From contig JAMCZE010000010.1 in NCBI GenBank assembly GCA_023485845.1, positions 89,448-153,447 on the forward strand: DNA of 64,000 nucleotides, read 5' to 3'. The notes beneath the pieces were generated by a model. The model worked only from the letters and a program-made list of their open reading frames with translations. It was not told the DNA's origin and ran no database searches. Positions 30,442 to 43,790 of this stretch are shown here, in pieces (the stretch's first letter is position 1; each line of letters begins with the position of its first letter). This stretch comes from Patescibacteria group bacterium (lineage in GTDB: Bacteria; Patescibacteriota; Microgenomatia; JAMCZE01). A program made the translations under genes and the position numbers.

Positions 30442-31152
30442 TTATTTCTCTATTTTATCTTTACTCTGCTGACCCTCAACCCATGCCTCGACTAGGTAGT
30501 CAATGATTATTTTAATACTTCCCACGGCGTCGTCGTTAGCCGGGATGGGATAAGTAACCGGCGTGGGGTCGGTGTTGGTGTCCACCACACCGACAATTGC
30601 CACCCCGGTGCGCATCGCTTCCCGCACGGCTCCGTCTTCCCGTTTAACATCCACAAAAAACACGGCGTCCGGCAATTTTGTCAGCCCCACCAAGCCGCCA
30701 TAGACCCGGGTGTATTTATCCAGCAGCCGTTGGGCCAATAGTTTCTCTTTTTTGGTAACAAACCGGTTCACCTCAATATCCTCGCGCAGTTTTAAAATGG
30801 CATCCAGATTATTCTTTTTCAGAATTTCAAAATTCGTTAAGAGGCCGCCCGGCCAGCGCTCCAATAAATAGTAGAAGTTTTTGTCGGCGCCCACCTTGTT
30901 CTTGGCTTCCTCCACCACGCTCTTGGCCTGCCGTTTTGTCCCGACAAAAAGCACCGAACCGCCGGATTTAGCCAAATCCGAAAGATATTTTGCTGCTGCC
31001 AGCAAACCATCGCGGGTTTTAGCTAAATCAATAATATGAACGCCTTCGCGCTCCCCATAAATATAGCCGGCCGCTTTCGGATGCCAACGATTGGTCTGGT
31101 GCCCAAAATGACACCCGGCCTCTAATAGTTCTTTTAGAGTAATATCTTTCAT
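30442..31152 (-). CDS. rpsB: 30S ribosomal protein S2
   Basis: LLEAGCHFGHQTNRWHPKAAGYIYGER... S2 signature. Confidence 0.9.
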   Translation of the reverse strand: MKDITLKELLEAGCHFGHQTNRWHPKAAGYIYGEREGVHIIDLAKTRDGLLAAAKYLSDLAKSGGSVLFVGTKRQAKSVVEEAKNKVGADKNFYYLLERWPGGLLTNFEILKKNNLDAILKLREDIEVNRFVTKKEKLLAQRLLDKYTRVYGGLVGLTKLPDAVFFVDVKREDGAVREAMRTGVAIVGVVDTNTDPTPVTYPIPANDDAVGSIKIIIDYLVEAWVEGQQSKDKIEK

Positions 31153-31865
31153 ACCTTGCTGATTTTAGCAGCCTCGAAGACATTTTCCAAGAGGCAAGCA
31201 ACAGTGAGAGGACCGACGCCCCCGGGAACGGGAGTGATGGCACCAACGGCCGCCGCCGATGGATCCACTTCCGGTCTGGGTGCTCCACAGTCAATAACAA
31301 TGGCATTCTTTTTAACCATCTCCGCCGTGATTAATCTTTCCTGTCCCGTCGCCACCACCAAGACATCAGCACTTAGTGTTTGCTCTTTCAAATCCGGCGT
31401 GTTCACGTCACAACGGACGACAGACAATCCCATATTCTCCCAATAATCGGCCAGCGGCTTGCCAATTAGTCTCCCCTGGCCCACAATGACAATTGTCTTG
31501 CCCGTCACATCACCGGCGCAAATTAAAACAGCACTGACGGCTGCCGGAAGAAACTTACTTTTACCCGTTAGCCCGTCAACGTCTTTTTCCGGCGGAATCT
31601 GGGCAATCAGTTCGTCAGCCTGGGGATGGGGCAGTTGGACAATAATCCCGTCAGCGGCTAAATCAATTTTATCGGTGACTGTCACGCCAATCCCCACTTC
31701 TTGCCCTCGGGCCATTTTTTGCCGGACGAAAACCGAATCCGGCTGATCCGTCACAATATTTAATTTTGGTCTAATCCCAAGTGTTTGGATCTTAGATTTT
31801 AGATCTTCCAGTTTCTGTGTGGCAATTTTTTTTCCATCAATGATCATATCGGAAACTTTCTGCAA
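31149..31865 (-). CDS. folD: Methylenetetrahydrofolate dehydrogenase/cyclohydrolase FolD (short)
   Basis: NAD(P) Rossmann GKTIVIVGQGRLIGKP and ITPVPGGVGPLT motif. Confidence 0.8.
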   Translation of the reverse strand: MQKVSDMIIDGKKIATQKLEDLKSKIQTLGIRPKLNIVTDQPDSVFVRQKMARGQEVGIGVTVTDKIDLAADGIIVQLPHPQADELIAQIPPEKDVDGLTGKSKFLPAAVSAVLICAGDVTGKTIVIVGQGRLIGKPLADYWENMGLSVVRCDVNTPDLKEQTLSADVLVVATGQERLITAEMVKKNAIVIDCGAPRPEVDPSAAAVGAITPVPGGVGPLTVACLLENVFEAAKISKV

Positions 31866-33064
31866 AGGTCCAACACATCTTTTTTAACCGCCCCGACGGG
31901 ACGGCGGGAGAAAATCACGTCGGCAATCCAGTCTCCGATTAGTTTCATTTCCGGCTCTTTCATTCCCCGGGTGGTGATTGCCGGGGTGCCCAACCGAATC
32001 CCGCTGGAAATTGCCGGCGGCAGCGGGTCATTGGGCACTGCGTTTTTATTGGTCACAATCCCCGCTTCCTCAAGTTTTTCCGCCGTGTCTTTTCCGGTCA
32101 AGCCAAAATTTTTTAAATCAATCATTATCAAATGATTATCCGTCCCGCCAGAAACCAAAGCGATTTTATTTTTAATTATGACCTCCGAGAGGACTTTGGC
32201 GTTAGCAACAATTTGCTTGGCATATGCTCTAAATTCACTTGTTCCTGCTTCTTTAGCCGCCACTGCCATAGCGGCAATCACGTTTTCGTGCGGGCCGCCC
32301 TGCAAACCGGGAAAAACCGCCCGGTCAATTTTAGCGGCCATCTCCTCATTATTCGTCATCAGAATCGCCCCCCGGGGGCCGCGCAAAGTTTTGTGGGTTG
32401 TCGTCATCACCACATCGGCAAACGGAATGGGACTGGGATGAACACCGGCCACCACCAATCCGGCAATGTGGGAAATGTCTGCCAAAAGAATCGCCCCGAC
32501 ACTGTCGGCAATTTTTTTAAATCTTGCAAACTCCAGAACCCGGGGGTAGGACGTCGTTCCACAGACAAGGATCTTTGGCTTTTCGATCAGAACCTGTTCT
32601 TGCAACTTGTCGTAGTTGATCCAACCGTTTTCATCGACCGTGTATTGAACGCTATTAAAATATTTTCCGGAAAAAGTAATTTTCGGATGGCCGTGGGTCA
32701 AGTGCCCGCCAGAAGACAGCGCCATTCCCATAATTTTATCCCCAAGGGCAAGAAGGGCAAAATAGACGGCGGCATTGGCCGGACTGCCGGAATAGGGCTG
32801 GACATTAACAAAGGCAACATTAAAAAGTTTCTTGAACCGGGCAATCGCCAGATTTTCAATGGCATCAATAATGCCGTTGCCTTGGTAGTAGCGCTTTCCC
32901 GGATAACCTTCGGAGTATTTATTGGCCAACACCGAACCAGTCGCCTGCCGCACGGCCGCGGAGACATAGTTTTCCGACGGGATCATCTCCAGCCCTTCCC
33001 GCTGTCTTTTTTCCTCTCGGCCAATCAGTTTGGCAATCTCCGGATCACTTTTCTGAAGTGTCAT
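31844..33064 (-). CDS. glyA: Serine hydroxymethyltransferase
   Basis: PLP-lysine motif TTTHKTLRGPRG, full-length SHMT similarity. Confidence 0.9.
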   Translation of the reverse strand: MTLQKSDPEIAKLIGREEKRQREGLEMIPSENYVSAAVRQATGSVLANKYSEGYPGKRYYQGNGIIDAIENLAIARFKKLFNVAFVNVQPYSGSPANAAVYFALLALGDKIMGMALSSGGHLTHGHPKITFSGKYFNSVQYTVDENGWINYDKLQEQVLIEKPKILVCGTTSYPRVLEFARFKKIADSVGAILLADISHIAGLVVAGVHPSPIPFADVVMTTTHKTLRGPRGAILMTNNEEMAAKIDRAVFPGLQGGPHENVIAAMAVAAKEAGTSEFRAYAKQIVANAKVLSEVIIKNKIALVSGGTDNHLIMIDLKNFGLTGKDTAEKLEEAGIVTNKNAVPNDPLPPAISSGIRLGTPAITTRGMKEPEMKLIGDWIADVIFSRRPVGAVKKDVLDLCRKFPI

Positions 33065-33073
33065 GAAGCAATT

Positions 33074-34285
33074 TTAGCACAAACTTATCCCACCCTGGCT
33101 CCCGAACTCATCTTCAACGGCTTTAAGTATCTCTTCATGAACGGATTCTGGTGATGACATGCCGTTAATCTTAACAACGTTATTGAGCTTTCCTAAAATT
33201 TCTCTATATCTTTTTCGACAACTTTCTATTTTAGCTAGGCTTTCAAATTTGCTGAATGGTTTATTTTCTTCAGTAAGTCTTCTTTCTATCCTCTTTATTG
33301 CCTCCTCCGGCTCAACATCCACCCATAAAATGAGATCCATATCTGGTACGAAAGCGTGCAAGAAACGAACTAAAGCCTCTTCTTGCTTCGTCTCGGCCTC
33401 ATAAACTTGTGTGTCAATCCAACTTCTCACATCAATAACCGTCTCCCCAGCTCTTAATGCAGGCAAAATTTCCTTACTCATAATTCTTCTTCGATCGGCA
33501 ATATAAAAGAACATATCCATAAAGTGATCGTCAATCTCACTTCGCCAACTGGCGAGGGTCGGCTTTGTGTCCGGAGTTGGCTCATGAACTAGCCTAACTT
33601 TTATTCCTTGTTTCCTATACCAGCCAACCAACATCTCAGCTTGGACATCTTTTCCGGAACCGCTTGTTCCCTCTATAACAATATATTTCCCGGTTAATTT
33701 CTCCGTTTCCAGTGAAGTGGGTTCTTCTAAGAGCGACAGAAAAAGTTCAACGAATCGGTATTGCCTTTCCGCTATTTTCTTGCTCTCGGGAAACTCCAAG
33801 CCGGCAATCCTTGCCGGCATTTTCACTCTTAACCGGTGCATAGTTTCTTCCATGGTTTCGCCTCTCTCACCGGACCACAGTAGAGTGCGAAGAATTCCTC
33901 TGGCTCCAAAACCATCCAAAAAGTCAGCCTCTTTGAGAATTTTCCCCTCAATCGTAGAGGGAGTAAATTCCGGTTGGTCATGTTCAGATATTGCTTGGCA
34001 GACAGCATCAATTTTTTCTTTTGGAAAACCAGTTTCTTCAAGAACTAACCTTGCCCGATGGACCGACTCTAAAGCACTTTCTTTCCCTCGCAATTGCTTA
34101 TCTGCTCGACCCAGATCGTGGAGAATAGCTGCAGCAGTAATTATTTCTTCATCGCCGCCATACAATCTCTGGAATCGTAATCCAGTGGCTACGACCCGTT
34201 TTAGATGATCATCCGAGTGGCTTGCTCCCACCACTGCATTGTCCACCCCTTGCCAAAGTTTATTTTCAATTTCTAATCTTTCCAT
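33074..34285 (-). CDS. tmk: Fusion protein: N-terminal HD phosphohydrolase domain, C-terminal thymidylate kinase
   Basis: HD motif (HSDDHLKRV...ILHDLGR) in residues about 1-190. Tmk P-loop IVIEGTSGSGKDV, HEPTP and DRR motifs in residues about 200-403. Confidence 0.7.
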   Translation of the reverse strand: MERLEIENKLWQGVDNAVVGASHSDDHLKRVVATGLRFQRLYGGDEEIITAAAILHDLGRADKQLRGKESALESVHRARLVLEETGFPKEKIDAVCQAISEHDQPEFTPSTIEGKILKEADFLDGFGARGILRTLLWSGERGETMEETMHRLRVKMPARIAGLEFPESKKIAERQYRFVELFLSLLEEPTSLETEKLTGKYIVIEGTSGSGKDVQAEMLVGWYRKQGIKVRLVHEPTPDTKPTLASWRSEIDDHFMDMFFYIADRRRIMSKEILPALRAGETVIDVRSWIDTQVYEAETKQEEALVRFLHAFVPDMDLILWVDVEPEEAIKRIERRLTEENKPFSKFESLAKIESCRKRYREILGKLNNVVKINGMSSPESVHEEILKAVEDEFGSQGGISLC

Positions 34286-34289
34286 CTGA

Positions 34290-35786
34290 TTAATCTTTCT
34301 TCCCTGGCTCCCTTATTCCGCTTGAACCCAAGGGTGAATAATCCCTATAGAAAAAATAACGACAGTTTTCTTCAGTAACTGGCACTTGCGAAAACCCGGA
34401 AATATCAGGAAAAGATTGTAAATCTGGAAAACGGAACCGCCGTTTATCCATTTCTGGTGGCACACCCTCGTGTATAGTAACTTCTTCCCATCGTAGCGGC
34501 AAAGGAATTAAAGGAAAGCGATCCGGGACATCGGAAACAACTACCGTTCTTGCTCGAGAAATTCCCAGTTTATCTGTTAACAAAAATCTATGTAGTCCAT
34601 CTATCAATAGGCATCTATTCCCGTCTGGTCCGGAAACCTCAACCGTAGGTGGAGAAATCACAAAATTCTTTCCCCCCATCCGGAATTCAATCGTCCCCGA
34701 CAGATCAAGAAAATCCAAAGCATAATTCGCCAAAAACAATTTTCTAAGCTTTTCGTGGAGATCAATCTGCCCAGCAAGAGCATAAAGGGAAAGCGGTGCA
34801 ATTTCATCAATGCTTAAGACCTTACTCTCTATTCTTGCTGCCGCATAAGGAAAAAGAGTTGGGTCCCCATTAAGCTTTACTCTTCTTAGAGCTCCTTCCA
34901 ACTCTTCCCAGGGGTGGACTTTTGTAATCTCCAGATCATCAGAAAAATATTCATGCTCAATTAGTTCTAACGTCTCTAAACCTAACTCCGGATGGTATGG
35001 CACTGCATTTCGCTCGCACTCTTTTCTTATTAACTCCTCCGCTTCAAGGTAGCCTTGCCAAGCAATTTTTTTTCCAGTCGCTGTTCTGGCATCCAATAAA
35101 GCTCTTTTGGCAGCCAATCTAACACTTCCCACAATTGATTCTCCCCACATCCATGCCCTCAACGGATCGCCTCTGGCAAACAATGGGAGACTCTGTTCTA
35201 AGTTAAAATCAAATGTTCTTTTGGCGCCGTCAGCTCCTGTCCCTAAACGACTGTCAGCCTCTTTAATAACTGCCAACATTGCTTTTGATCGTGGATCACT
35301 ATCCATCTCCTGCTCTGCCTCTTTCACCCATCCGCGGGTGATAGCAGGACTTCCCCCCCTCCCCTTACTTGGAAACAGATAATTAGTGTTATCGTGATTT
35401 AAAACGAGATATAAAACTTGCTTCAGTCTTTGGGGGTCCTCAGCAAAACCGGGAATCCTCAAAAGAATTTCGTTGGCGATTCTCATACTTTCGTGGACAT
35501 GCTCCCGTTTATCTTCAGACCAATCAACTTTCCTTTGAGAGAAACCAGCATCATGAAGCAGCGCCGCCACCGATAAAGCTGTTAGGTCAAGATCGAGCGA
35601 CGAGTACTCGGGTTCTCGAGCGATTTCCAAAACTAGCCTCTCGGCACTCTTAACATGATCCATCCCATGAATTCTTTCATTAGAAGGATAATAGCAAGCC
35701 ATTTGTTCAGTCACAACTTCACGCCAAGGAGAAAATAAGAGTCTTTGCTTCCTATCTTTTTCAGAAAAATTTTCTGCAACAGTCAT
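34290..35786 (-). CDS. HD-domain protein with about 350-aa uncharacterised C-terminal region
   Basis: HGMDHVKSAERL...LLHDAGF HD signature. Remainder unrecognised. Confidence 0.6.
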   Translation of the reverse strand: MTVAENFSEKDRKQRLLFSPWREVVTEQMACYYPSNERIHGMDHVKSAERLVLEIAREPEYSSLDLDLTALSVAALLHDAGFSQRKVDWSEDKREHVHESMRIANEILLRIPGFAEDPQRLKQVLYLVLNHDNTNYLFPSKGRGGSPAITRGWVKEAEQEMDSDPRSKAMLAVIKEADSRLGTGADGAKRTFDFNLEQSLPLFARGDPLRAWMWGESIVGSVRLAAKRALLDARTATGKKIAWQGYLEAEELIRKECERNAVPYHPELGLETLELIEHEYFSDDLEITKVHPWEELEGALRRVKLNGDPTLFPYAAARIESKVLSIDEIAPLSLYALAGQIDLHEKLRKLFLANYALDFLDLSGTIEFRMGGKNFVISPPTVEVSGPDGNRCLLIDGLHRFLLTDKLGISRARTVVVSDVPDRFPLIPLPLRWEEVTIHEGVPPEMDKRRFRFPDLQSFPDISGFSQVPVTEENCRYFFYRDYSPLGSSGIREPGKKD

Positions 35787-35806
35787 CTCTTCATATCTAA
35801 GTAAAA

Positions 35807-36535
35807 CTACCCCTCATGAATCTTCATTCTTCCATAACGTTCCCTCAATGCTGGAAAAGCTTCCTTTGACCAAAAGGACATTCTCTCAATCAATTTCTCC
35901 GCTTCATCCCAAGTTACAAATTTACCTTCAATTACTCCTTCATCACCACTGTCCTCGAAAATTGCTCTATCCCCAAGATATGCCCAAACAAGACCTGCAT
36001 GGACCATGTTCACCTGGTTTGTTTGTAAATTCACCACCCCAACAAATTCTCGCTTCAAAACAGTTCCGAGGTACCTTGTCTCCTCATTAAATTCTCTCTC
36101 GGCTGCCTTTCCAATATCCACGTCCCCTTCTTCCACATGACCACCAAGAAATATCGGCCATAAATCATGAAGACGATCTTCCGAACCGGTTACTGGAATC
36201 CTATGAACAAAAACCTGATTTTGAGCAATCAATATTACCTGAGGAATAATTTGCTTCCAAGACGGATCATCTTCCACCTCCGCCCGCCGCTTGTATTCAC
36301 CATATCTGTTGATAAGCCCAAAAACTGTCTGAAAATCATCAATGGGGCGAAATCCTTCCCACACTCCGTCCGGGAAAAGCTTATTCGTGGGAACAACTAA
36401 CACCTTTTGTTCAAGTTTATCCATCTCCGGCAATTTAGCTCGGAAGAGATTCTTTTGCAACGGGTCAAAATAGATCAGGAGATCTCCCAGTACTTCTATT
36501 TCCTCAGCAGTCTCAAGAATAATTATAAATCGCAA
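35807..36535 (-). CDS. Nudix hydrolase
   Basis: Nudix box GGHVEEGDVDIGKAAEREFNEETRY. TTG start. Confidence 0.75.
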   Translation of the reverse strand: MRFIIILETAEEIEVLGDLLIYFDPLQKNLFRAKLPEMDKLEQKVLVVPTNKLFPDGVWEGFRPIDDFQTVFGLINRYGEYKRRAEVEDDPSWKQIIPQVILIAQNQVFVHRIPVTGSEDRLHDLWPIFLGGHVEEGDVDIGKAAEREFNEETRYLGTVLKREFVGVVNLQTNQVNMVHAGLVWAYLGDRAIFEDSGDEGVIEGKFVTWDEAEKLIERMSFWSKEAFPALRERYGRMKIHEG

Positions 36536-36681
36536 TCACCTTCTCCAGTTGTTTATCGGAAAGGTGCTTCTTTGTTCTCATAAATCCCTGCATCTGCGGT
36601 GTTATTGTAATCTTCTTCTTGGTTTTATCAATTTTATGTTTCATTCTTTAATTATACATTCCCCGTGATTAATATAATAAC

Positions 36682-37119
36682 ATGACAAGAGTTTCGGCAG
36701 GTTTACTGATGTTTCGAAGATGCGCCAAAGACATCGAGGTTTTTTTAGTCCATCCCGGCGGGCCGTTTTTTGGACGAAGGGACAACGTTTGGGGCATTCC
36801 TAAGGGAGAGCGGCACGATGACGAAGATTTATTAACCTGCGCTAAGCGGGAATTTACTGAAGAAACGGGTATCGATCCTGGGCAAGCGGCAATGACGCCG
36901 CTGGGATCGATTCAATATAACAACAAAACTATTTATTGTTGGACCTTTGAAAAAGATTTGCCAGAAAATTTTAAGCTAAAAAGTAATCTTACACCATATG
37001 GTTGGCCGGAAATTGACAAGGGGGAATTTTTCAATCTCGGTGCCGCCGCTTCCAAAATCCTCCCGGGCCAAAAAATTTTTTTAGAGAGACTATTTGAGTA
37101 TTGCAAAGTTAATAATTAG
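36682..37119 (+). CDS. Nudix hydrolase
   Basis: Nudix box GIPKGERHDDEDLLTCAKREFTEETGI. Confidence 0.75.
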   Translation: MTRVSAGLLMFRRCAKDIEVFLVHPGGPFFGRRDNVWGIPKGERHDDEDLLTCAKREFTEETGIDPGQAAMTPLGSIQYNNKTIYCWTFEKDLPENFKLKSNLTPYGWPEIDKGEFFNLGAAASKILPGQKIFLERLFEYCKVNN

Positions 37120-37136
37120 GATTTACTATCTCCAGG

Positions 37137-37964
37137 ATGACAGGTAACCAAGAATACTCCGGCTCAATTGAGAACCAATACCTTAGTCTTCTTGATGATA
37201 TCCTCACAAACGGATACCAATCCGGTGACCGCACCGGAACCGGGACAAGAAAAGTTTTTGGTCGGACGCTACGAGCTGACCTTACCCAAGGATATCCGCT
37301 TTTAACAACAAAGTCCGTTCATTTCCCTTCAGTGGCCCATGAGTTGATATGGTTCATCAGTGGTAGCACCAACATTAAATATCTCCACGATCGTGGCATC
37401 ACCATTTGGGACGAATGGGCTGATGCAAACGGCGAGGTTGGAAGAATGTATGGTGTCCAGTGGCGCCATTGGGTTGGCCCGGATGGGAAAGAAACCGACC
37501 AACTCCAAAAAGCAATTGATAAAATTCACTCCTCACCAAACGACCGAAGAATTATTGTCTCTGCTTGGAATCCCGCAGAAGTGGATAAGATGGCACTCCC
37601 CCCATGTCATGCCCTTTATCAATTTGATGTTCAAGGAGAAAGACTTTCTTGCGCGATGTTCCAGCGATCTATCGACACATTCCTCGGCCTCCCATTTAAC
37701 ATTGCAAGTTACGCCGCTTTGACAAAAATGATTGCCAGTTTAACAGATCTGACCCCCCACGAATTAATTCTATTTCTTGGAAACACGCACCTTTATCTGA
37801 ATCATCTCGCTCAAGCTAAAATACAACTAGAGAGAGACTCGAGACCACTGCCAAAATTAGAAATTATTCATCACAGAACAAAAATTGATGATTTTGTCTT
37901 TGAAGATTTCAGACTTTTAGACTATAACCCACACCCCAAAATCAGAGCACCAATTTCAAAGTAA
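37137..37964 (+). CDS. thyA: Thymidylate synthase (ThyA, folate-dependent)
   Basis: Near-colinear with E. coli ThyA, including RRIIVSAWNPAEVDKMALPPCHALYQF catalytic Cys region and DRTGTGT. Confidence 0.9.
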   Translation: MTGNQEYSGSIENQYLSLLDDILTNGYQSGDRTGTGTRKVFGRTLRADLTQGYPLLTTKSVHFPSVAHELIWFISGSTNIKYLHDRGITIWDEWADANGEVGRMYGVQWRHWVGPDGKETDQLQKAIDKIHSSPNDRRIIVSAWNPAEVDKMALPPCHALYQFDVQGERLSCAMFQRSIDTFLGLPFNIASYAALTKMIASLTDLTPHELILFLGNTHLYLNHLAQAKIQLERDSRPLPKLEIIHHRTKIDDFVFEDFRLLDYNPHPKIRAPISK

Positions 37965-37968
37965 TGAA

Positions 37969-38631
37969 CTAACACCACATTCTTAGTCTTGGGTGGCCGG
38001 GAACACGATGGTGCAATGGACAGACTGCCTGATACTGTTCTTCGGCTCCAACTACAATAACTTTATCATCGAAGTCCGCTGGTTCACCATCCTTAAACCG
38101 CTGTGTTTGGGTTGCTTTCTTTCCGCAAATTTCGCCAAGAGAAACCTCATAAGAGCAAATGGCAAATCTTCTGTGAACTTTATGCGCCTGTGCTTCCAAT
38201 ATTGGAAAACAACCAAATGGTTCACCTCTAAAATCTGTCGGGAGACCAGTCAAAATCACCCCGATACCGGACTGTGATAATTCCTGAACAACAAATGGCG
38301 TTTCCTCATCAAGGAATTGTGCCTCATCAATGCCAATAATCCTCACTCCTGTCTTTAAATGTTGAAAGATATCTCGCGCCTTATCAACTGATATTGCCGG
38401 ATAGCGTACTCCATTATGTCCTTCTATCTCATCCGCCGCACTACGGGTGTCACCCGTCCATTTAAATGCCTGCACTGTCAGTTTGGCAAAACTGGCAAGT
38501 TCCAGACGGTGAATCATTTCGTTTGTTTTGTCAGCGAACATGGGTCCGCTAATAGCAGTTACTTTCCTTGGGCCTTTTTCTCTATGGTTCTTCATGCGAT
38601 TCACCTTACCCCCCCCAACCAATTTTTTCAA
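37969..38631 (-). CDS. tdk: Thymidine kinase (TK1 type with C-terminal zinc ribbon)
   Basis: GPMFADKTNEMI P-loop, GIDEAQFL, C-terminal Cys/His ribbon (CSYEV...CGKKA...CPLHHR). Confidence 0.85.
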   Translation of the reverse strand: MKKLVGGGKVNRMKNHREKGPRKVTAISGPMFADKTNEMIHRLELASFAKLTVQAFKWTGDTRSAADEIEGHNGVRYPAISVDKARDIFQHLKTGVRIIGIDEAQFLDEETPFVVQELSQSGIGVILTGLPTDFRGEPFGCFPILEAQAHKVHRRFAICSYEVSLGEICGKKATQTQRFKDGEPADFDDKVIVVGAEEQYQAVCPLHHRVPGHPRLRMWC

Positions 38632-38646
38632 CTAGATCTTTATAGG

Positions 38647-39078
38647 TCAATGGTAACCGGTTGTTCCCAACATTCCACGGGACCTCTTTGCCCGCATCTT
38701 GTCAACTTCCTCAAACTGCGCAATAGCTATTCGAACAAAAATTCCCTGGGCAATTCTGGTGCCGGACGCAATTTCCACCTCTTTATCGGTGATGTTTAAC
38801 GCTTGGATGTGAATCTCGTCCTTATCACCGGAAAAATCCTGATCGACAATACCGGGAATTATCATTAATCCAAATTTATGTGCAGTAGATCCCCGACTAT
38901 TAACCAGAAGAAAATGCCCCTTGGGAACAGCAACAGCAATATTTGCCGGCACCACCCTAAACTCACGTGGGGCAAATTTTTCATTGTTCCGAAGACTTAA
39001 ATCAAAACCCACTGCCCCGGGAGTTTTATATCCCGGCAGCGGTAAATTTTTATCAAACCTTTTTACCTCAATTTTCAT
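38647..39078 (-). CDS. dut: dUTPase / dCTP-deaminase-fold protein
   Basis: GFDLSL, RSS-like and GIVDQDFSGD motifs typical of the trimeric dUTPase fold. Confidence 0.7.
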   Translation of the reverse strand: MKIEVKRFDKNLPLPGYKTPGAVGFDLSLRNNEKFAPREFRVVPANIAVAVPKGHFLLVNSRGSTAHKFGLMIIPGIVDQDFSGDKDEIHIQALNITDKEVEIASGTRIAQGIFVRIAIAQFEEVDKMRAKRSRGMLGTTGYH

Positions 39079-43304: not shown

Positions 43305-43790
43305 ATGTCACCGAAAGATAAAGAACAACGCCTAAAAGAAGTCTACCACAATCTTAAAACCATGGTTGCTGCACACCCCGGGATCCATATTGAGGAAGTA
43401 GAGCAATTGCTCAGAACAGATTATAGATATAGTCTTGACGAGATTGTTGGCGCACTTGACCATGGGCTCGCGAACGATAACCGTATGACAAAGCGCTTGG
43501 GCGAGTCGGAAATGGTCTTTCAAGTTGATCGATCTGGACCAAGTGGGCAAAGGATCGGACGGCGGCTCTTCCTGCGCCAGGATGCTCCAGGACCGGAGAT
43601 GAATGTCATGGTAAGCGCGTTTAAAGTTGAAGGGGCTGATGATCTTGTGGCAACAACGGTGTCTCTATACCAACGTAAAGAGAGAATAGACCTACGGGGT
43701 TCTTCTGATGCTGGTGCCATAGAGCTTCTATCAAAACTTCTTGGGCGAAAAATAAATATTGACAGTTTACCTACTGAACCAGGCCGTTAA
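43305..43790 (+). CDS. Hypothetical protein (161 aa)
   Basis: ORF only. Confidence 0.4.
   Translation: MSPKDKEQRLKEVYHNLKTMVAAHPGIHIEEVEQLLRTDYRYSLDEIVGALDHGLANDNRMTKRLGESEMVFQVDRSGPSGQRIGRRLFLRQDAPGPEMNVMVSAFKVEGADDLVATTVSLYQRKERIDLRGSSDAGAIELLSKLLGRKINIDSLPTEPGR

What the first reader, a model, noticed from the sequence alone, without database searches (positions are those of the whole stretch)
31149..39078. Complete thymidylate-supply island with an HD::Tmk fusion, a second large HD protein and two divergent Nudix genes
Within 8 kb sit folD and glyA (the CH2-THF donor system), an HD::tmk fusion, an HD protein, a Nudix gene, a second divergent Nudix gene, a canonical thyA (PPCHALYQF, near-colinear with E. 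coli), tdk and a dut-like gene. Every step from dUTP or thymidine to dTDP is co-localised. These genes are normally scattered. Two HD and two Nudix hydrolases embedded among them suggest a dedicated dNTP-pool sanitation or regulation module. The region reads like a self-contained 'T-nucleotide' cassette. I see no hydroxymethylase-type changes in ThyA, so I do not claim base hypermodification.
Basis: partly seen in the sequence, partly recalled or inferred. Interest (0 to 1): 0.55.

Follow-up and report, generated by a model that had tools for sequence, protein, structure and literature searches.

The report
Thymidylate gene cluster hiding HD–ParB/kinase pair
A tiny-genome (Patescibacteria) bacterium packs nearly all its thymidine-nucleotide genes into one 8-kb block, and two of them form an uncharacterised, widely conserved gene pair (a nucleotide hydrolase fused to a ParB-like nucleotide-binding domain, next to the same hydrolase fused to a thymidylate-kinase look-alike) whose job in nucleotide-pool control is unknown.

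Summary
Nine tightly packed genes lie between topA and rpsB-tsf-frr in a Patescibacteria MAG: short folD, glyA, HD::Tmk-like, a large HD protein, two Nudix genes, canonical thyA, tdk and dut. 'Complete' is overstated, because no DHFR or NDP kinase lies in the window.

Together with HD::Tmk it forms a conserved two-gene module.
- All 10 independent full-length homologue loci have HD::Tmk immediately downstream.
- 10 of 13 HD::Tmk loci have ParB-CE next door.

The kinase domain is a Tmk paralogue. Its Walker A reads GK[D/E]T, and in other Patescibacteria it sits beside a canonical tmk. Both HD domains are YpgQ-class, the (d)NTP pyrophosphohydrolase/nucleotidase type. ParB-CE also occurs fused to Nudix.

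In Patescibacteria the pair sits among interchangeable pyrimidine genes (ThyA or ThyX, dCMP deaminase, tdk, dNK, glyA). In Chloroflexota it stands alone or in defence-island-like settings. One degenerate relative adjoins 5-hmdU-type hypermodification genes.

Best reading: a pyrimidine dNTP-pool processing module. The mechanism is inferred, not shown. I found no paper on this pair in the held library; the module is uncharacterised.

The parts
31149..31865 (-). Short FolD-like methylene-THF dehydrogenase/cyclohydrolase (238 aa). Overlaps rpsB by 4 bp and glyA by 22 bp.
   Evidence: Pfam PF02882 1.8e-33 and PF00763 3.7e-10. NCBIfam FolD equivalogs score only 77-127 bits against cut-offs of 333-559. 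The L011 homologue is 270 aa.
31844..33064 (-). glyA, serine hydroxymethyltransferase (406 aa).
   Evidence: PF00464 2.8e-155. NF000586 558.5 bits against cut-off 335. Syntenic glyA in L011, L012, L032, L034, L035, L037 and L038.
33074..34285 (-). HD::Tmk-like fusion (403 aa). YpgQ-class HD domain (about residues 1-195, coordinates 33701-34285) plus a Tmk-paralogue kinase domain (about residues 196-403, coordinates 33077-33700).
   Evidence: Pfam HD 5.8e-10 and Thymidylate_kin 1.6e-22. TIGR00041 84.2 against 83.25. PDB sequence hits: YedJ 1.1e-12, Tmk 1e-11, YpgQ 3.8e-8. Family alignment A3 shows invariant H23, H27, H56-D57, H102-D103, D121 and R133, Walker A GxSGxGK[D/E]TQA, and xRS in place of DRY. 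There are >=111 90%-identity clusters with this architecture.
34290..35786 (-). HD-ParB-CE protein (498 aa). YpgQ-class HD domain with a helical extension (about residues 1-280, coordinates 34947-35786) plus a ParB/Srx-fold 'ParB-CE' domain with a conserved C-terminal LGSSGxR tail (residues 281-498, coordinates 34293-34946).
   Evidence: Pfam PF24392 1e-8 and HD 5.5e-4. A1 invariants: H44, H78-D79, H131-D132, D178, PPxxE383, D396-G-x-H399-R400, K448-R449, R452, S488-G490-R492. AF2 gives pLDDT 89 and pTM 0.87. Foldseek matches the HD part to YpgQ/YedJ/2pjq. The C-terminal model (pLDDT 92) matches SerK-like 1vk1, Noc, SerK, SbnI and Srx. The profile against PDB hits SbnI at 0.004 on the DGxHR motif. 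NCBI calls it 'hypothetical protein'.
35807..36535 (-). Nudix hydrolase of the TM1382 (PDB 3E57) family and first gene of the Nudix-HD-ParB-CE-HD::Tmk-glyA-folD-rpsB transcription unit. The likely true start is the ATG at 36424 (205 aa).
   Evidence: PF00293 1.8e-8. 3e57 at 2e-23 over residues 42-227. phrog_8902 2.7e-12. NCBI models it as 205 aa. The REFNEE catalytic core is read directly from the sequence.
36536..36681 (.). Divergent intergenic region between the two Nudix-led units. Contains a sigma-70-like site on the minus strand (36631 to 36604, TTGATA-16-TACAAT).
   Evidence: Promoter scan, 10/12 match. Inverted pair TGTTATTGTA/TATAATAACA at 36600-36609 and 36673-36682. No Rfam family hit. 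This is a consensus match only, not evidence of function.
36682..37119 (+). Small Nudix hydrolase (145 aa) with a canonical Nudix box, 17 bp upstream of thyA.
   Evidence: PF00293 6.7e-11. Weak PDB similarity to decapping and Ap4A Nudix enzymes, 2.7e-5 to 7.7e-4. phrog_1185 9.5e-11. No NCBIfam equivalog reached.
37137..37964 (+). Canonical thyA, thymidylate synthase (275 aa).
   Evidence: PF00303 4.6e-109. NF002497 385.4 against 327. E. coli and other solved TS at 1e-95 to 1e-97, colinear 13-274 against 2-263. PPCH, RS-D, N, H-Y and IWDEW motifs are present.
37969..38631 (-). tdk, thymidine kinase (220 aa as listed; the start is uncertain).
   Evidence: PF00265 3.8e-31. NF003296 181.5 against 183. 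tdk is the most frequent neighbour of the Tmk-like gene, in 13 loci.
38647..39078 (-). Trimeric-type dUTPase (143 aa).
   Evidence: PF00692 5.5e-21. NF001862 86.9 against 103, below cut-off. phrog_135 1.6e-27.

Best explanation
The region is a genuine, co-transcribed pyrimidine-deoxynucleotide (dTTP) supply cluster in the housekeeping core of a Patescibacteria genome: dprA-topA | island | rpsB-tsf-frr.

Its distinctive element is a conserved two-gene module:
- (i) a YpgQ-class HD phosphohydrolase fused to a ParB/Srx-fold nucleotide-binding domain (ParB-CE);
- (ii) a paralogous YpgQ-class HD domain fused to a thymidylate-kinase paralogue.

Proposed working, all inferred:
- The two proteins act together, probably as a complex. 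YpgQ is a homodimer, the two HD domains are paralogues, and the genes are translationally coupled.
- The HD sites, and the Nudix enzymes encoded beside them, hydrolyse pyrimidine dNTPs (dCTP/dUTP or other unwanted dNTPs) to dNMP + PPi. This feeds dCMP deaminase/ThyA.
- The kinase domain re-phosphorylates dTMP or a related dNMP/dNDP.
- ParB-CE binds an NTP. It acts either as a phosphoryl donor/transfer site, like the ParB-fold kinases SerK/SbnI/Srx, or as a nucleotide-sensing switch that gates the hydrolase, like ParB-type NTP switches.

The net effect would be control of flux and composition of the pyrimidine dNTP pool.

Shown here: gene content, domain identities, intact catalytic motifs, strict gene pairing, and recurrent linkage to thymidylate genes in Patescibacteria.

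Not shown: substrates, complex formation, and the direction of flux.
For: Gene identities and packing.

Pairing:
- All 10 independent full-length HD-ParB-CE loci retrieved with the ParB-CE protein have HD::Tmk immediately downstream on the same strand, with gaps or overlaps of only a few bp.
- 10 of 13 loci retrieved with HD::Tmk have ParB-CE adjacent.

Linkage to dTTP genes in Patescibacteria-type loci:
- L011: tdk, glyA, folD.
- L012: glyA, rpsB.
- L014: dCMP deaminase, ThyX, dNK, TK.
- L015: dCMP deaminase, ThyA-like, dNK.
- L037: Tmk-like + ParB-CE + tdk + glyA.
- L018: dCMP deaminase, ThyA, DHFR, two YfbR-like HD genes.

HD class: YpgQ/YedJ by sequence and fold. Metal ligands and the Arg 12 residues after the last Asp are invariant. 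For YpgQ and PenF activities see PMC8177086 and PMC11592144.

ParB-CE:
- ParB/Srx fold, nearest the ATP-using kinases SerK/SbnI and Noc.
- The fold is known to bind CTP, ATP or GTP and to be re-used through fusions (PMC12704722).
- It is fused alternatively to HD or to Nudix, two unrelated nucleotide-hydrolase folds.

Kinase domain: NMP-kinase motifs are retained, and lid arginines and the D-R motif are conserved.

Context: housekeeping flanks and uniform GC. No relatives in phage, plasmid or IMG/VR collections.
Against: - There is no biochemical evidence for any member of the ParB-CE or HD::Tmk families.
- In Chloroflexota the pair occurs with no thymidylate genes. Some loci look like mobile or defence islands, with toxin-antitoxin genes, D12 methyltransferases (one is PD-Lambda-5_B at 8e-102), a DUF772-Nudix protein and DUF499.
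- A hydrolase and a kinase on one polypeptide would be futile if they act on the same nucleotide.
- The kinase paralogue sits beside a canonical Tmk in six related loci, so it need not be the dTMP kinase.
- Its Walker A lacks the usual Ser/Thr, and the DRY Asp is missing.
- dut already covers dUTP hydrolysis in this window.
- thyA, dut and both Nudix genes of the window are not conserved next to the pair in the nearest relatives.
- HD::Tmk occurs without ParB-CE in 3 of 13 loci.
Confidence: 0.45

Rival explanations
1. The pair is primarily a module for non-canonical pyrimidine nucleotides, in either of two ways. It could support DNA thymidine (hyper)modification: excluding dTTP/dUTP through the HD hydrolase and phosphorylating a modified dNMP such as 5-hmdUMP through the Tmk paralogue, with ParB-CE acting on or regulating DNA-level steps. 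Alternatively it could act as an anti-phage nucleotide-pool weapon. On this view, its position among thymidylate genes in Patescibacteria reflects shared substrates, not housekeeping dTTP supply.
For: - L010 (Ktedonobacterales): a degenerate HD-CE/ParB-CE gene is divergently adjacent to a Tmk-like kinase, a 5-hmdU DNA kinase helical-domain protein (PF18723, 2.4e-63), a divergent ThyA-like gene (phrog_5131, 2.7e-61) and dCMP deaminase.
- L015 and L037 carry divergent ThyA-like genes lacking the His after the catalytic Cys, the IWDEW tryptophans and the C-terminus.
- Non-CPR loci recurrently hold D12 DNA methyltransferases (6 loci), a DUF772-Nudix protein (5 loci) and toxin-antitoxin genes.
- The kinase domain hits the PADLOC candidates PDC-M51B (down to 3e-18) and VakA.
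- ParB-like proteins regulate phage T-dioxygenases (title and abstract of PMC13229309).
Against: - The window's ThyA is fully canonical.
- No HMUDK, glycosyl- or aminoacyl-transferase, or methyltransferase lies in the window island.
- The pair is co-transcribed with glyA-folD-rpsB in a streamlined genome.
- There are no homologues in 50,697 phage records, 72,556 plasmids or IMG/VR.
- ParB-CE has no PADLOC hit.
- The neighbouring methyltransferases are heterogeneous, which fits defence-island co-location rather than a fixed partner.
- L010's ParB-CE lacks the DGxHR motif and the tail, so it is not a typical member.
Confidence: 0.22
2. There is no special module. HD::Tmk is simply this lineage's housekeeping dTMP kinase with an accreted HD domain. 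The HD-ParB-CE gene is an unrelated neighbour, and the cluster is an ordinary operon of nucleotide genes of the kind common in reduced genomes.
For: - PGAP names HD::Tmk 'dTMP kinase', and it just passes TIGR00041.
- No other Tmk is in the 64-kb window.
- Many Patescibacteria keep tmk-tdk-glyA-rpsB together without ParB-CE (L032-L036, L038, L039).
- HD::Tmk occurs with tdk but without ParB-CE in Roizmanbacteria and two other loci.
Against: - Adjacency of ParB-CE and the Tmk paralogue holds across phyla and across architectures (HD-fused or stand-alone), with translational coupling.
- The two HD domains are paralogues of one another.
- The kinase paralogue coexists with a much more canonical Tmk, 191-195 bits against 102-113 bits.
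- Catalytic residues of all four domains are invariant.
Confidence: 0.18
3. HD-ParB-CE is a DNA-directed enzyme (ParB-like nuclease or DNA clamp plus an HD nuclease). It degrades or binds DNA, for example scavenged host DNA, and the resulting dNMPs are then handled by the kinase.
For: - ParB-fold proteins include nucleases and DNA clamps, and Noc and ParB are among the structural neighbours.
- Patescibacteria are thought to depend on salvaged nucleic acids (my own knowledge, not tested here).
- dprA lies nearby.
Against: - Pfam detects no HTH or other DNA-binding domain.
- PF02195 (ParBc) is not hit.
- The HD domain is of the small-molecule YpgQ class, not the Cas3 or RNase Y nuclease class.
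- No signal peptide or secretion context is evident.
- The closest PDB sequence matches are small-molecule kinases.
Confidence: 0.1

Closest known systems
YpgQ (Bacillus subtilis) / YedJ (E. coli) / PenF subfamily of HD phosphohydrolases
   Same: Both HD domains hit this subfamily best, by sequence (YedJ 1.1e-12, 2pq7, YpgQ 3.8e-8) and by fold. They share the H...HD...D metal ligands and the Arg 12 residues after the last Asp. The characterised activities of the subfamily are (d)NTP to (d)NMP + PPi, and 5'-nucleotidase.
   Different: Here the domain is fused to a ParB/Srx-fold domain or to a Tmk-like kinase and occurs as a paralogous pair. It carries an extra invariant H-D pair (EHDQP in HD::Tmk, HHD in HD-ParB-CE). 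The substrate is unknown.
Canonical thymidylate kinase (Tmk; TIGR00041, e.g. E. coli 4TMK, A. aeolicus 2PBR)
   Same: The same P-loop NMP-kinase fold, with full-length colinearity. The D-R motif, Y-Q motif and lid arginines are conserved.
   Different: The score is borderline or low against the equivalog model: 84 bits here and 102-113 in relatives, against 191-195 for the canonical Tmk next door. Walker A is GK[D/E]TQ, which resembles adenylate kinase's GKGTQ (my own knowledge) rather than GK[ST]T. The Asp of DRY is absent. It is usually fused to HD and paired with ParB-CE.
ParB/Srx-fold NTP-binding proteins: SerK and SbnI (free serine kinases), sulfiredoxin, and the ParB/Noc CTPase clamps
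   Same: About 100 residues superpose on these structures (Foldseek probability 1.0, E about 1e-3). The DGLHR motif aligns with SerK DGHHR and SbnI DGVHR.
   Different: It is not recognised by PF02195. It has no HTH or dimerisation domain. It has an extra N-terminal alpha/beta subdomain and a C-terminal extension ending in an invariant LGSSGxR tail. It is fused to HD or Nudix. The 2025 survey of the fold (PMC12704722) used PF02195 and does not mention these fusions.
Phage nucleotide-pool reprogramming cassettes, such as the thymidine-hypermodification pathways (dUMP hydroxymethylase + dNMP kinase + 5-HMUDK; PMC5889632, PMC8989533) and the DatZ/MazZ/PurZ Z-genome set (the latter from my own knowledge)
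   Same: The same logic: a dNTP hydrolase is clustered with a ThyA-family enzyme and a dNMP kinase. One degenerate relative (L010) sits next to HMUDK_hel and a divergent ThyA-like gene.
   Different: The window's ThyA is canonical. No DNA-level modification enzymes are present. The context is cellular and housekeeping, with no phage homologues.
YfbR, Dgt/SAMHD1 and MutT
   Same: The superfamilies match: HD and Nudix.
   Different: The HD domains do not hit the YfbR-like models (PF12917/PF13023, which do hit separate genes in L018). They also do not hit the dGTPase-associated domains. Neither Nudix protein reaches any MutT/NudX equivalog. Nudix-242 belongs to the uncharacterised TM1382 family.

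Membership tests
Thymidylate kinase (Tmk, TIGR00041 equivalog) | Score at or above the curated cut-off of the equivalog model | tested here: inconclusive
   84.2 bits against a cut-off of 83.25 for the window protein. Relatives score 102-113, while adjacent canonical Tmk genes score 191-195.
Thymidylate kinase (Tmk, TIGR00041 equivalog) | Walker A GxxGxGK[S/T] and the D-R-[Y/F/H] motif | tested here: not met
   Family-wide GxSGxGK[D/E]TQA, with xRS in place of DRY (alignment A3). The window protein reads GSGKDVQA and VRS.
Thymidylate kinase (Tmk, TIGR00041 equivalog) | dTMP-specific phosphorylation; sole Tmk of the genome | not testable with these tools
   Only 64 kb of the genome is available, and no second Tmk lies in it. 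The paralogue coexists with canonical Tmk in L032-L034, L036, L038 and L039.
YpgQ/YedJ-class HD phosphohydrolase | H...HD...D metal ligands plus a substrate Arg about 12 residues after the last Asp; best sequence and fold matches within the class | tested here: met
   HD::Tmk has H27, H56-D57, D121 and R133. HD-ParB-CE has H44, H78-D79, D178 and R190. PDB hits are YedJ, 2pq7, YpgQ, 2pjq and 3dto. Residue roles are taken from PMC8177086.
YpgQ/YedJ-class HD phosphohydrolase | (d)NTP pyrophosphohydrolase or 5'-nucleotidase activity | not testable with these tools
   Biochemistry is required.
ParB/Srx (ParB-CTPase) fold | Fold similarity and the phosphate-binding GxxR/DGxHR motif | tested here: met
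   Foldseek hits to 1vk1, Noc, SerK, SbnI, Srx and ParB. DGLHR is invariant and aligns to SbnI/SerK.
Canonical ParB (chromosome/plasmid partition protein) | PF02195 N-domain, HTH DNA-binding domain, C-terminal dimerisation domain, ParA partner | tested here: not met
   Only PF24392 and HD are detected. There is no HTH and no parA neighbour.
Thymidylate synthase ThyA (methylating, not hydroxymethylating) | Equivalog score; catalytic Cys-His, Arg pair, Asn177 equivalent, Tyr94, W80/W83 and an intact C-terminus | tested here: met
   NF002497 385.4 against 327. Colinear with E. coli TS at 1e-95. Motifs are present, in contrast to the L010, L015 and L037 ThyA-like proteins.
Known anti-phage defence systems (PADLOC-DB 2.0) | Hits to all components of a listed system | tested here: not met
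   Only the kinase domain hits candidate PDC-M51B (6.7e-8) and, in relatives, VakA. ParB-CE has no hit.
Thymidine hypermodification cluster (5-hmdU pathway) | dUMP hydroxymethylase-type ThyA homologue, 5-HMUDK, aGPT-Pplase or other transferases | tested here: not met
   Absent from the window. HMUDK_hel and a divergent ThyA-like gene are present only in locus L010.
Nudix hydrolases of defined specificity (MutT, NudI, RppH, Ap4A hydrolase) | Equivalog-level match | tested here: not met
   No NCBIfam hit for Nudix-242. Nudix-145 scores at most 20.6 bits against cut-offs of 116-475. The Nudix catalytic core is present in both.

The most novel reading that the evidence does not exclude
ParB-CE is a new functional branch of the ParB/Srx fold that works on free nucleotides. 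It may be a (d)NTP-sensing switch gating HD/Nudix pyrophosphohydrolases, or a phosphotransferase. Together with a Tmk paralogue it would form a previously unrecognised two-protein machine that edits or balances the pyrimidine dNTP pool. Two specific possibilities are supplying the dCMP/dUMP entry and the dTDP/dTTP exit of the thymidylate branch in ultra-small bacteria, and discriminating canonical from modified thymidine nucleotides.
Probability: 0.25. Interest if true: 0.8.

Novelty: new variant of a known kind. Interest (0 to 1): 0.6.

Why it matters
Patescibacteria lack most nucleotide biosynthesis (my own knowledge), so how they build and balance dNTP pools is central to their lifestyle.

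The cluster shows that they keep the dTTP branch as one unit. It also exposes a conserved, unstudied enzyme pair:
- About 1,000 50%-identity clusters carry ParB-CE.
- At least 111 90%-identity clusters carry HD::Tmk.

Public annotation files these as 'hypothetical protein' and 'dTMP kinase'.

The pair extends the recently recognised versatility of the ParB NTP-binding fold to fusions with nucleotide hydrolases. It also flags a likely mis-annotated Tmk paralogue, and it offers a testable link between dNTP hydrolysis and re-phosphorylation. If the module turns out to handle modified thymidine nucleotides, it would matter for DNA-modification and phage-defence biology.

Tried and rejected
- Base hypermodification in the window: rejected. 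ThyA is canonical and there are no HMUDK or transferase genes.
- Mobile or horizontally acquired island: rejected. GC is uniform and the flanks are housekeeping.
- Phage or plasmid origin: no tblastn hit for HD-ParB-CE in phages or plasmids, no IMG/VR relative of HD::Tmk, and only fold-level ParB matches in BFVD.
- Known defence system: no PADLOC system.
- Riboswitch or other RNA element in the island: none at E<=1.
- Dgt/SAMHD1 or YfbR identity for the HD domains: not supported.
- Orthology of the window's Nudix genes with the DUF772-Nudix partner of Chloroflexota loci, or with ParB-CE-Nudix fusions: only Nudix-box-level similarity.
- Literature: no paper for 'ParB-CE', 'PF24392' or 'HD-CE', and none on Patescibacteria thymidylate salvage.
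- Technical dead ends:
  - Alignment A2 was too divergent for locus scans.
  - The one context retrieved for a ParB-CE-Nudix protein was a 2.6-kb contig with no kinase.
  - I could not check the rest of the genome for canonical tmk, ndk, folA or dCMP deaminase.

Full report
**1. What is in the sequence**

The interval 31149-39078 holds nine genes with almost no spacer. Gaps between same-strand neighbours run from -22 to +20 bp, and 96% of the span is coding.

Minus strand:
- dut (38647-39078)
- tdk (37969-38631)
- Nudix (35807-36535; NCBI starts it at the ATG at 36424)
- HD + ParB-CE protein (34290-35786)
- HD::Tmk-like (33074-34285)
- glyA (31844-33064)
- a short folD (31149-31865), which overlaps rpsB

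Plus strand, transcribed divergently from the first Nudix gene: a second Nudix (36682-37119) and thyA (37137-37964).

Pfam and NCBIfam confirm each identity.
- glyA and thyA pass equivalog cut-offs.
- thyA is colinear with E. coli TS (E about 1e-95) and has all catalytic motifs.
- tdk, dut and the Tmk-like domain are borderline or below equivalog cut-offs.
- folD is about 45 residues short and far below the cut-offs.

The flanks are housekeeping genes: dprA and topA on one side; rpsB, tsf, frr, rseP-like, proS, dnaX and recR on the other. GC content is uniform. No Rfam element is present.

The window comes from a 'Patescibacteria group bacterium' MAG. There the large HD protein is annotated 'hypothetical protein' and HD::Tmk 'dTMP kinase'.

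Under any reasonable gene count, a run of nine such genes is not a chance event (illustration).

'Complete' is too strong. No DHFR, NDP kinase, dCMP deaminase or canonical tmk lies in the 64 kb.

**2.

The 498-aa 'second large HD protein' has a C-terminal domain matching Pfam PF24392 'ParB-CE'.

Its homologues (41 clusters, 32-65% identity) conserve two sets of residues (alignment A1):
- the HD metal ligands H44, H78-D79, H131-D132 and D178;
- in the C-terminal half, PPxxE, D396-G-x-H399-R400, K448-R449, R452, and an invariant terminal LGSSGxR.

Structure predictions:
- AlphaFold2 gives a confident two-domain model (pLDDT 89, pTM 0.87).
- The HD half matches the YpgQ/YedJ/2pjq/3dto group.
- A separate model of the C-terminal half (pLDDT 92) matches ParB/Srx-fold proteins over about 100 residues. 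The ATP-using small-molecule kinases (SerK, its P. furiosus homologue 1vk1, SbnI) and Noc rank at the top.
- A sequence profile hits SbnI (E 0.004) and SerK on the DGxHR motif.

PF02195 does not detect this family. A 2025 survey of the ParB-CTPase fold that used PF02195 does not mention HD, Nudix or thymidylate associations (PMC12704722).

**3. The conserved unit is a gene pair**

Every independent full-length HD-ParB-CE locus I could retrieve has an HD::Tmk gene immediately downstream on the same strand, often overlapping by a few bases. That is 10 of 10:
- seven from metagenome or genome contigs;
- three from GTDB representative genomes of Ktedonobacteraceae, Anaerolineaceae and Chloroflexia.

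Conversely, of 13 loci retrieved with HD::Tmk as query, 10 have ParB-CE adjacent, either HD-fused or as a stand-alone protein of about 220 aa.

The HD domains of the two proteins are paralogues. Both hit phrog_3921, and the HD::Tmk profile detects the HD of the partner.

A profile of ParB-CE finds 1,046 representatives at 50% identity (E<=1e-3). Their architectures are HD + ParB-CE, stand-alone ParB-CE, and ParB-CE + Nudix. The domain is thus repeatedly joined to two unrelated nucleotide-hydrolase folds.

**4. The 'Tmk' is a paralogue**

The HD::Tmk family has at least 111 clusters, including Roizmanbacteria, Levybacteria, an Ignavibacteria-labelled MAG and Chloroflexota. Its kinase domain departs from canonical Tmk in two ways (A3):
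- Walker A is GxSGxGK[D/E]TQA rather than GK[S/T]T.
- It has xRS in place of DRY.

It keeps the D-R and Y-Q motifs and the lid arginines.

In other Patescibacteria-type loci that share the tdk ... glyA-rpsB synteny, an HD-less version of this kinase sits directly beside a canonical Tmk: L032, L033, L034, L036, L038 and L039. In L037 it sits beside a stand-alone ParB-CE instead.

Against TIGR00041, the paralogue scores 102-113 bits, the neighbouring canonical Tmk 191-195, and the window protein 84.2 (cut-off 83.25). The step 'dTMP to dTDP' is therefore plausible for this protein but not established.

**5. Is the island conserved?**

Partly.

In the closest relatives (57-62% identity), the pair lies between topA and glyA-rpsB as it does here, but the accompanying genes change:
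- L011: tdk, glyA, folD.
- L012: a small Tmk-like gene and glyA.
- L014: dCMP deaminase, ThyX, dNK and TK.
- L015: dCMP deaminase, a divergent ThyA-like gene, dNK and two further P-loop kinases.

A more distant locus on a 354-kb contig (L018) has dCMP deaminase, ThyA, DHFR, two YfbR-like HD genes, HD::Tmk and stand-alone ParB-CE, followed by pyrimidine biosynthesis genes.

Replacement of ThyA by ThyX, together with the recurrent dCMP deaminase, argues for a functional link to the thymidylate branch.

The window's own thyA, dut and two Nudix genes have no detectable counterparts beside the pair in these relatives.

In Chloroflexota the pair occurs without any thymidylate gene (L001, L006-L008, L019). 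Some loci look like mobile or defence islands: L002/3, L004/5, L023-L026, L028 and L029. These carry toxin-antitoxin genes, D12 methyltransferases (one is PD-Lambda-5_B), a recurrent DUF772-Nudix protein and a 390-aa membrane protein.

**6. Mechanism**

The HD class has two characterised members:
- YpgQ, a Mn-dependent homodimeric (d)NTP pyrophosphohydrolase (PMC8177086);
- PenF, a 5'-nucleotidase (PMC11592144).

The metal ligands and the substrate Arg are conserved in both window proteins. The kinase retains NMP-kinase motifs. ParB-fold domains bind CTP, ATP or GTP and act as switches or phosphotransferases (PMC12704722).

My best-supported reading (confidence 0.45):
- The module processes the pyrimidine dNTP pool.
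- HD (and Nudix) sites convert dNTPs such as dCTP or dUTP to dNMPs, which enter the dCMP deaminase/ThyA step.
- The kinase domain returns dTMP (or a related nucleotide) to the di- or triphosphate level.
- ParB-CE supplies NTP-dependent control or phosphoryl transfer.

Complex formation is inferred from translational coupling, the paralogous HD domains, and the invariant glycine-rich tail of ParB-CE. That tail is absent from the ParB-CE-Nudix fusions examined. From memory, it resembles the phosphate-closing C-terminal motif V of dUTPases; this is a lead, not a test.

None of the activities has been measured.

**7. Rivals**

(a) *A module for non-canonical thymidine chemistry or defence (0.22).*
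- A degenerate relative in a Ktedonobacterales genome (L010) is adjacent to a Tmk-like kinase, a 5-hmdU DNA kinase helical-domain protein, a divergent ThyA-like gene and dCMP deaminase.
- L015 and L037 have ThyA-like genes lacking features of methylating enzymes.
- Chloroflexota contexts are defence-island-like.
- The kinase hits the PADLOC candidates PDC-M51B and VakA.
- Against: canonical ThyA here, a housekeeping operon, and no phage or plasmid relatives.

(b) *Ordinary housekeeping Tmk with an accidental neighbour (0.18).* This is contradicted by the cross-phylum pairing.

(c) *A DNA-directed nuclease or clamp (0.10).* There is no DNA-binding domain, and the HD is of the small-molecule class.

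**8. Verdict**

- The 'T-nucleotide cassette with sanitation hydrolases' reading is partly supported for Patescibacteria. It must be re-centred on the HD-ParB-CE + HD-Tmk-paralogue pair.
- That pair is uncharacterised, widespread and mis- or un-annotated. It is a new variant built from known enzyme folds.
- Interest: 0.6.

Noticed in passing
L010:6345-11251 (Ktedonobacterales MAG DASVAA010000121.1): A cellular (or prophage) thymidine-hypermodification-like gene set: a Tmk-like P-loop kinase, a 5-hmdU DNA kinase helical-domain protein (PF18723, 2.4e-63), a divergent ThyA-like gene (best match phrog_5131) and dCMP deaminase. It is transcribed divergently from an HD-CE/ParB-CE protein whose DGxHR motif reads DGAAT and whose C-terminal part is missing. 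L009 has the same truncated variant next to a dCMP deaminase.
   Followed up: partly
L015:1327-2235 and L037:3-1523: Patescibacteria-type loci that carry ParB-CE also have highly divergent ThyA-like proteins (302 and 507 aa). These keep the catalytic Cys, R-S-x-D, Asn and H..Y. They lack the His after the Cys, the IWDEW tryptophans and the canonical C-terminus. They may be hydroxymethylase-type or archaeal-type enzymes.
   Followed up: partly
L004, L023, L024, L025, L026 (downstream of HD::Tmk): A recurrent protein of about 390-465 aa that fuses a DUF772 (transposase-type DNA-binding) domain to a Nudix domain. It is often accompanied by a 390-aa protein with C-terminal membrane helices and a nearby D12 N6-adenine methyltransferase (6 loci; L024's is PD-Lambda-5_B at 8e-102). 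Together with the pair, this may form a larger system in Chloroflexota-type genomes.
   Followed up: partly
L032-L039 (metagenome contigs syntenic with the window island): Many Patescibacteria carry a fixed run upstream of glyA-rpsB: HAD hydrolase, Tmk paralogue (GKETQA), canonical Tmk, tdk, a 230-aa P-loop protein, plus dNK, ThyA and DHFR nearby. That places two Tmk-family kinases and a thymidine kinase in a row.
   Followed up: partly
window:34290-35786: In a second NCBI MAG (locus tags M1345_01735 and M1345_01740), the same gene is split into 162-aa and 338-aa 'hypothetical proteins'. This is probably a frameshift or assembly error. The 498-aa form in this window is supported by all homologues.
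   Followed up: yes
window:31149-31865: The FolD is unusually short (238 aa). It has a deletion in the N-terminal catalytic domain but retains the K, VQLP and KDVDG motifs. Its gene overlaps both glyA and rpsB.
   Followed up: partly
window:36600-36682: An inverted pair, TGTTATTGTA / TATAATAACA, lies 63 nt apart in the divergent intergenic region. Each arm overlaps a -10-like hexamer of one of the two divergent units. The plus-strand copy ends at the ATG of the 145-aa Nudix gene, so that gene's transcript may be leaderless or the protein may start at Met10.
   Followed up: no
window:34293-34340 (C-terminus of HD-ParB-CE): The invariant terminal LGSSGxR resembles, from memory, the glycine-rich motif V (GFGS[ST]G) of trimeric dUTPases, which closes over the triphosphate. 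It is absent from the ParB-CE-Nudix fusions examined.
   Followed up: no
window:41318-42327 and 43305-43790: Three ORFs between topA and dprA and next to dprA (100, 149 and 161 aa). The two that were scanned have no Pfam hit, and I did not examine them further.
   Followed up: no
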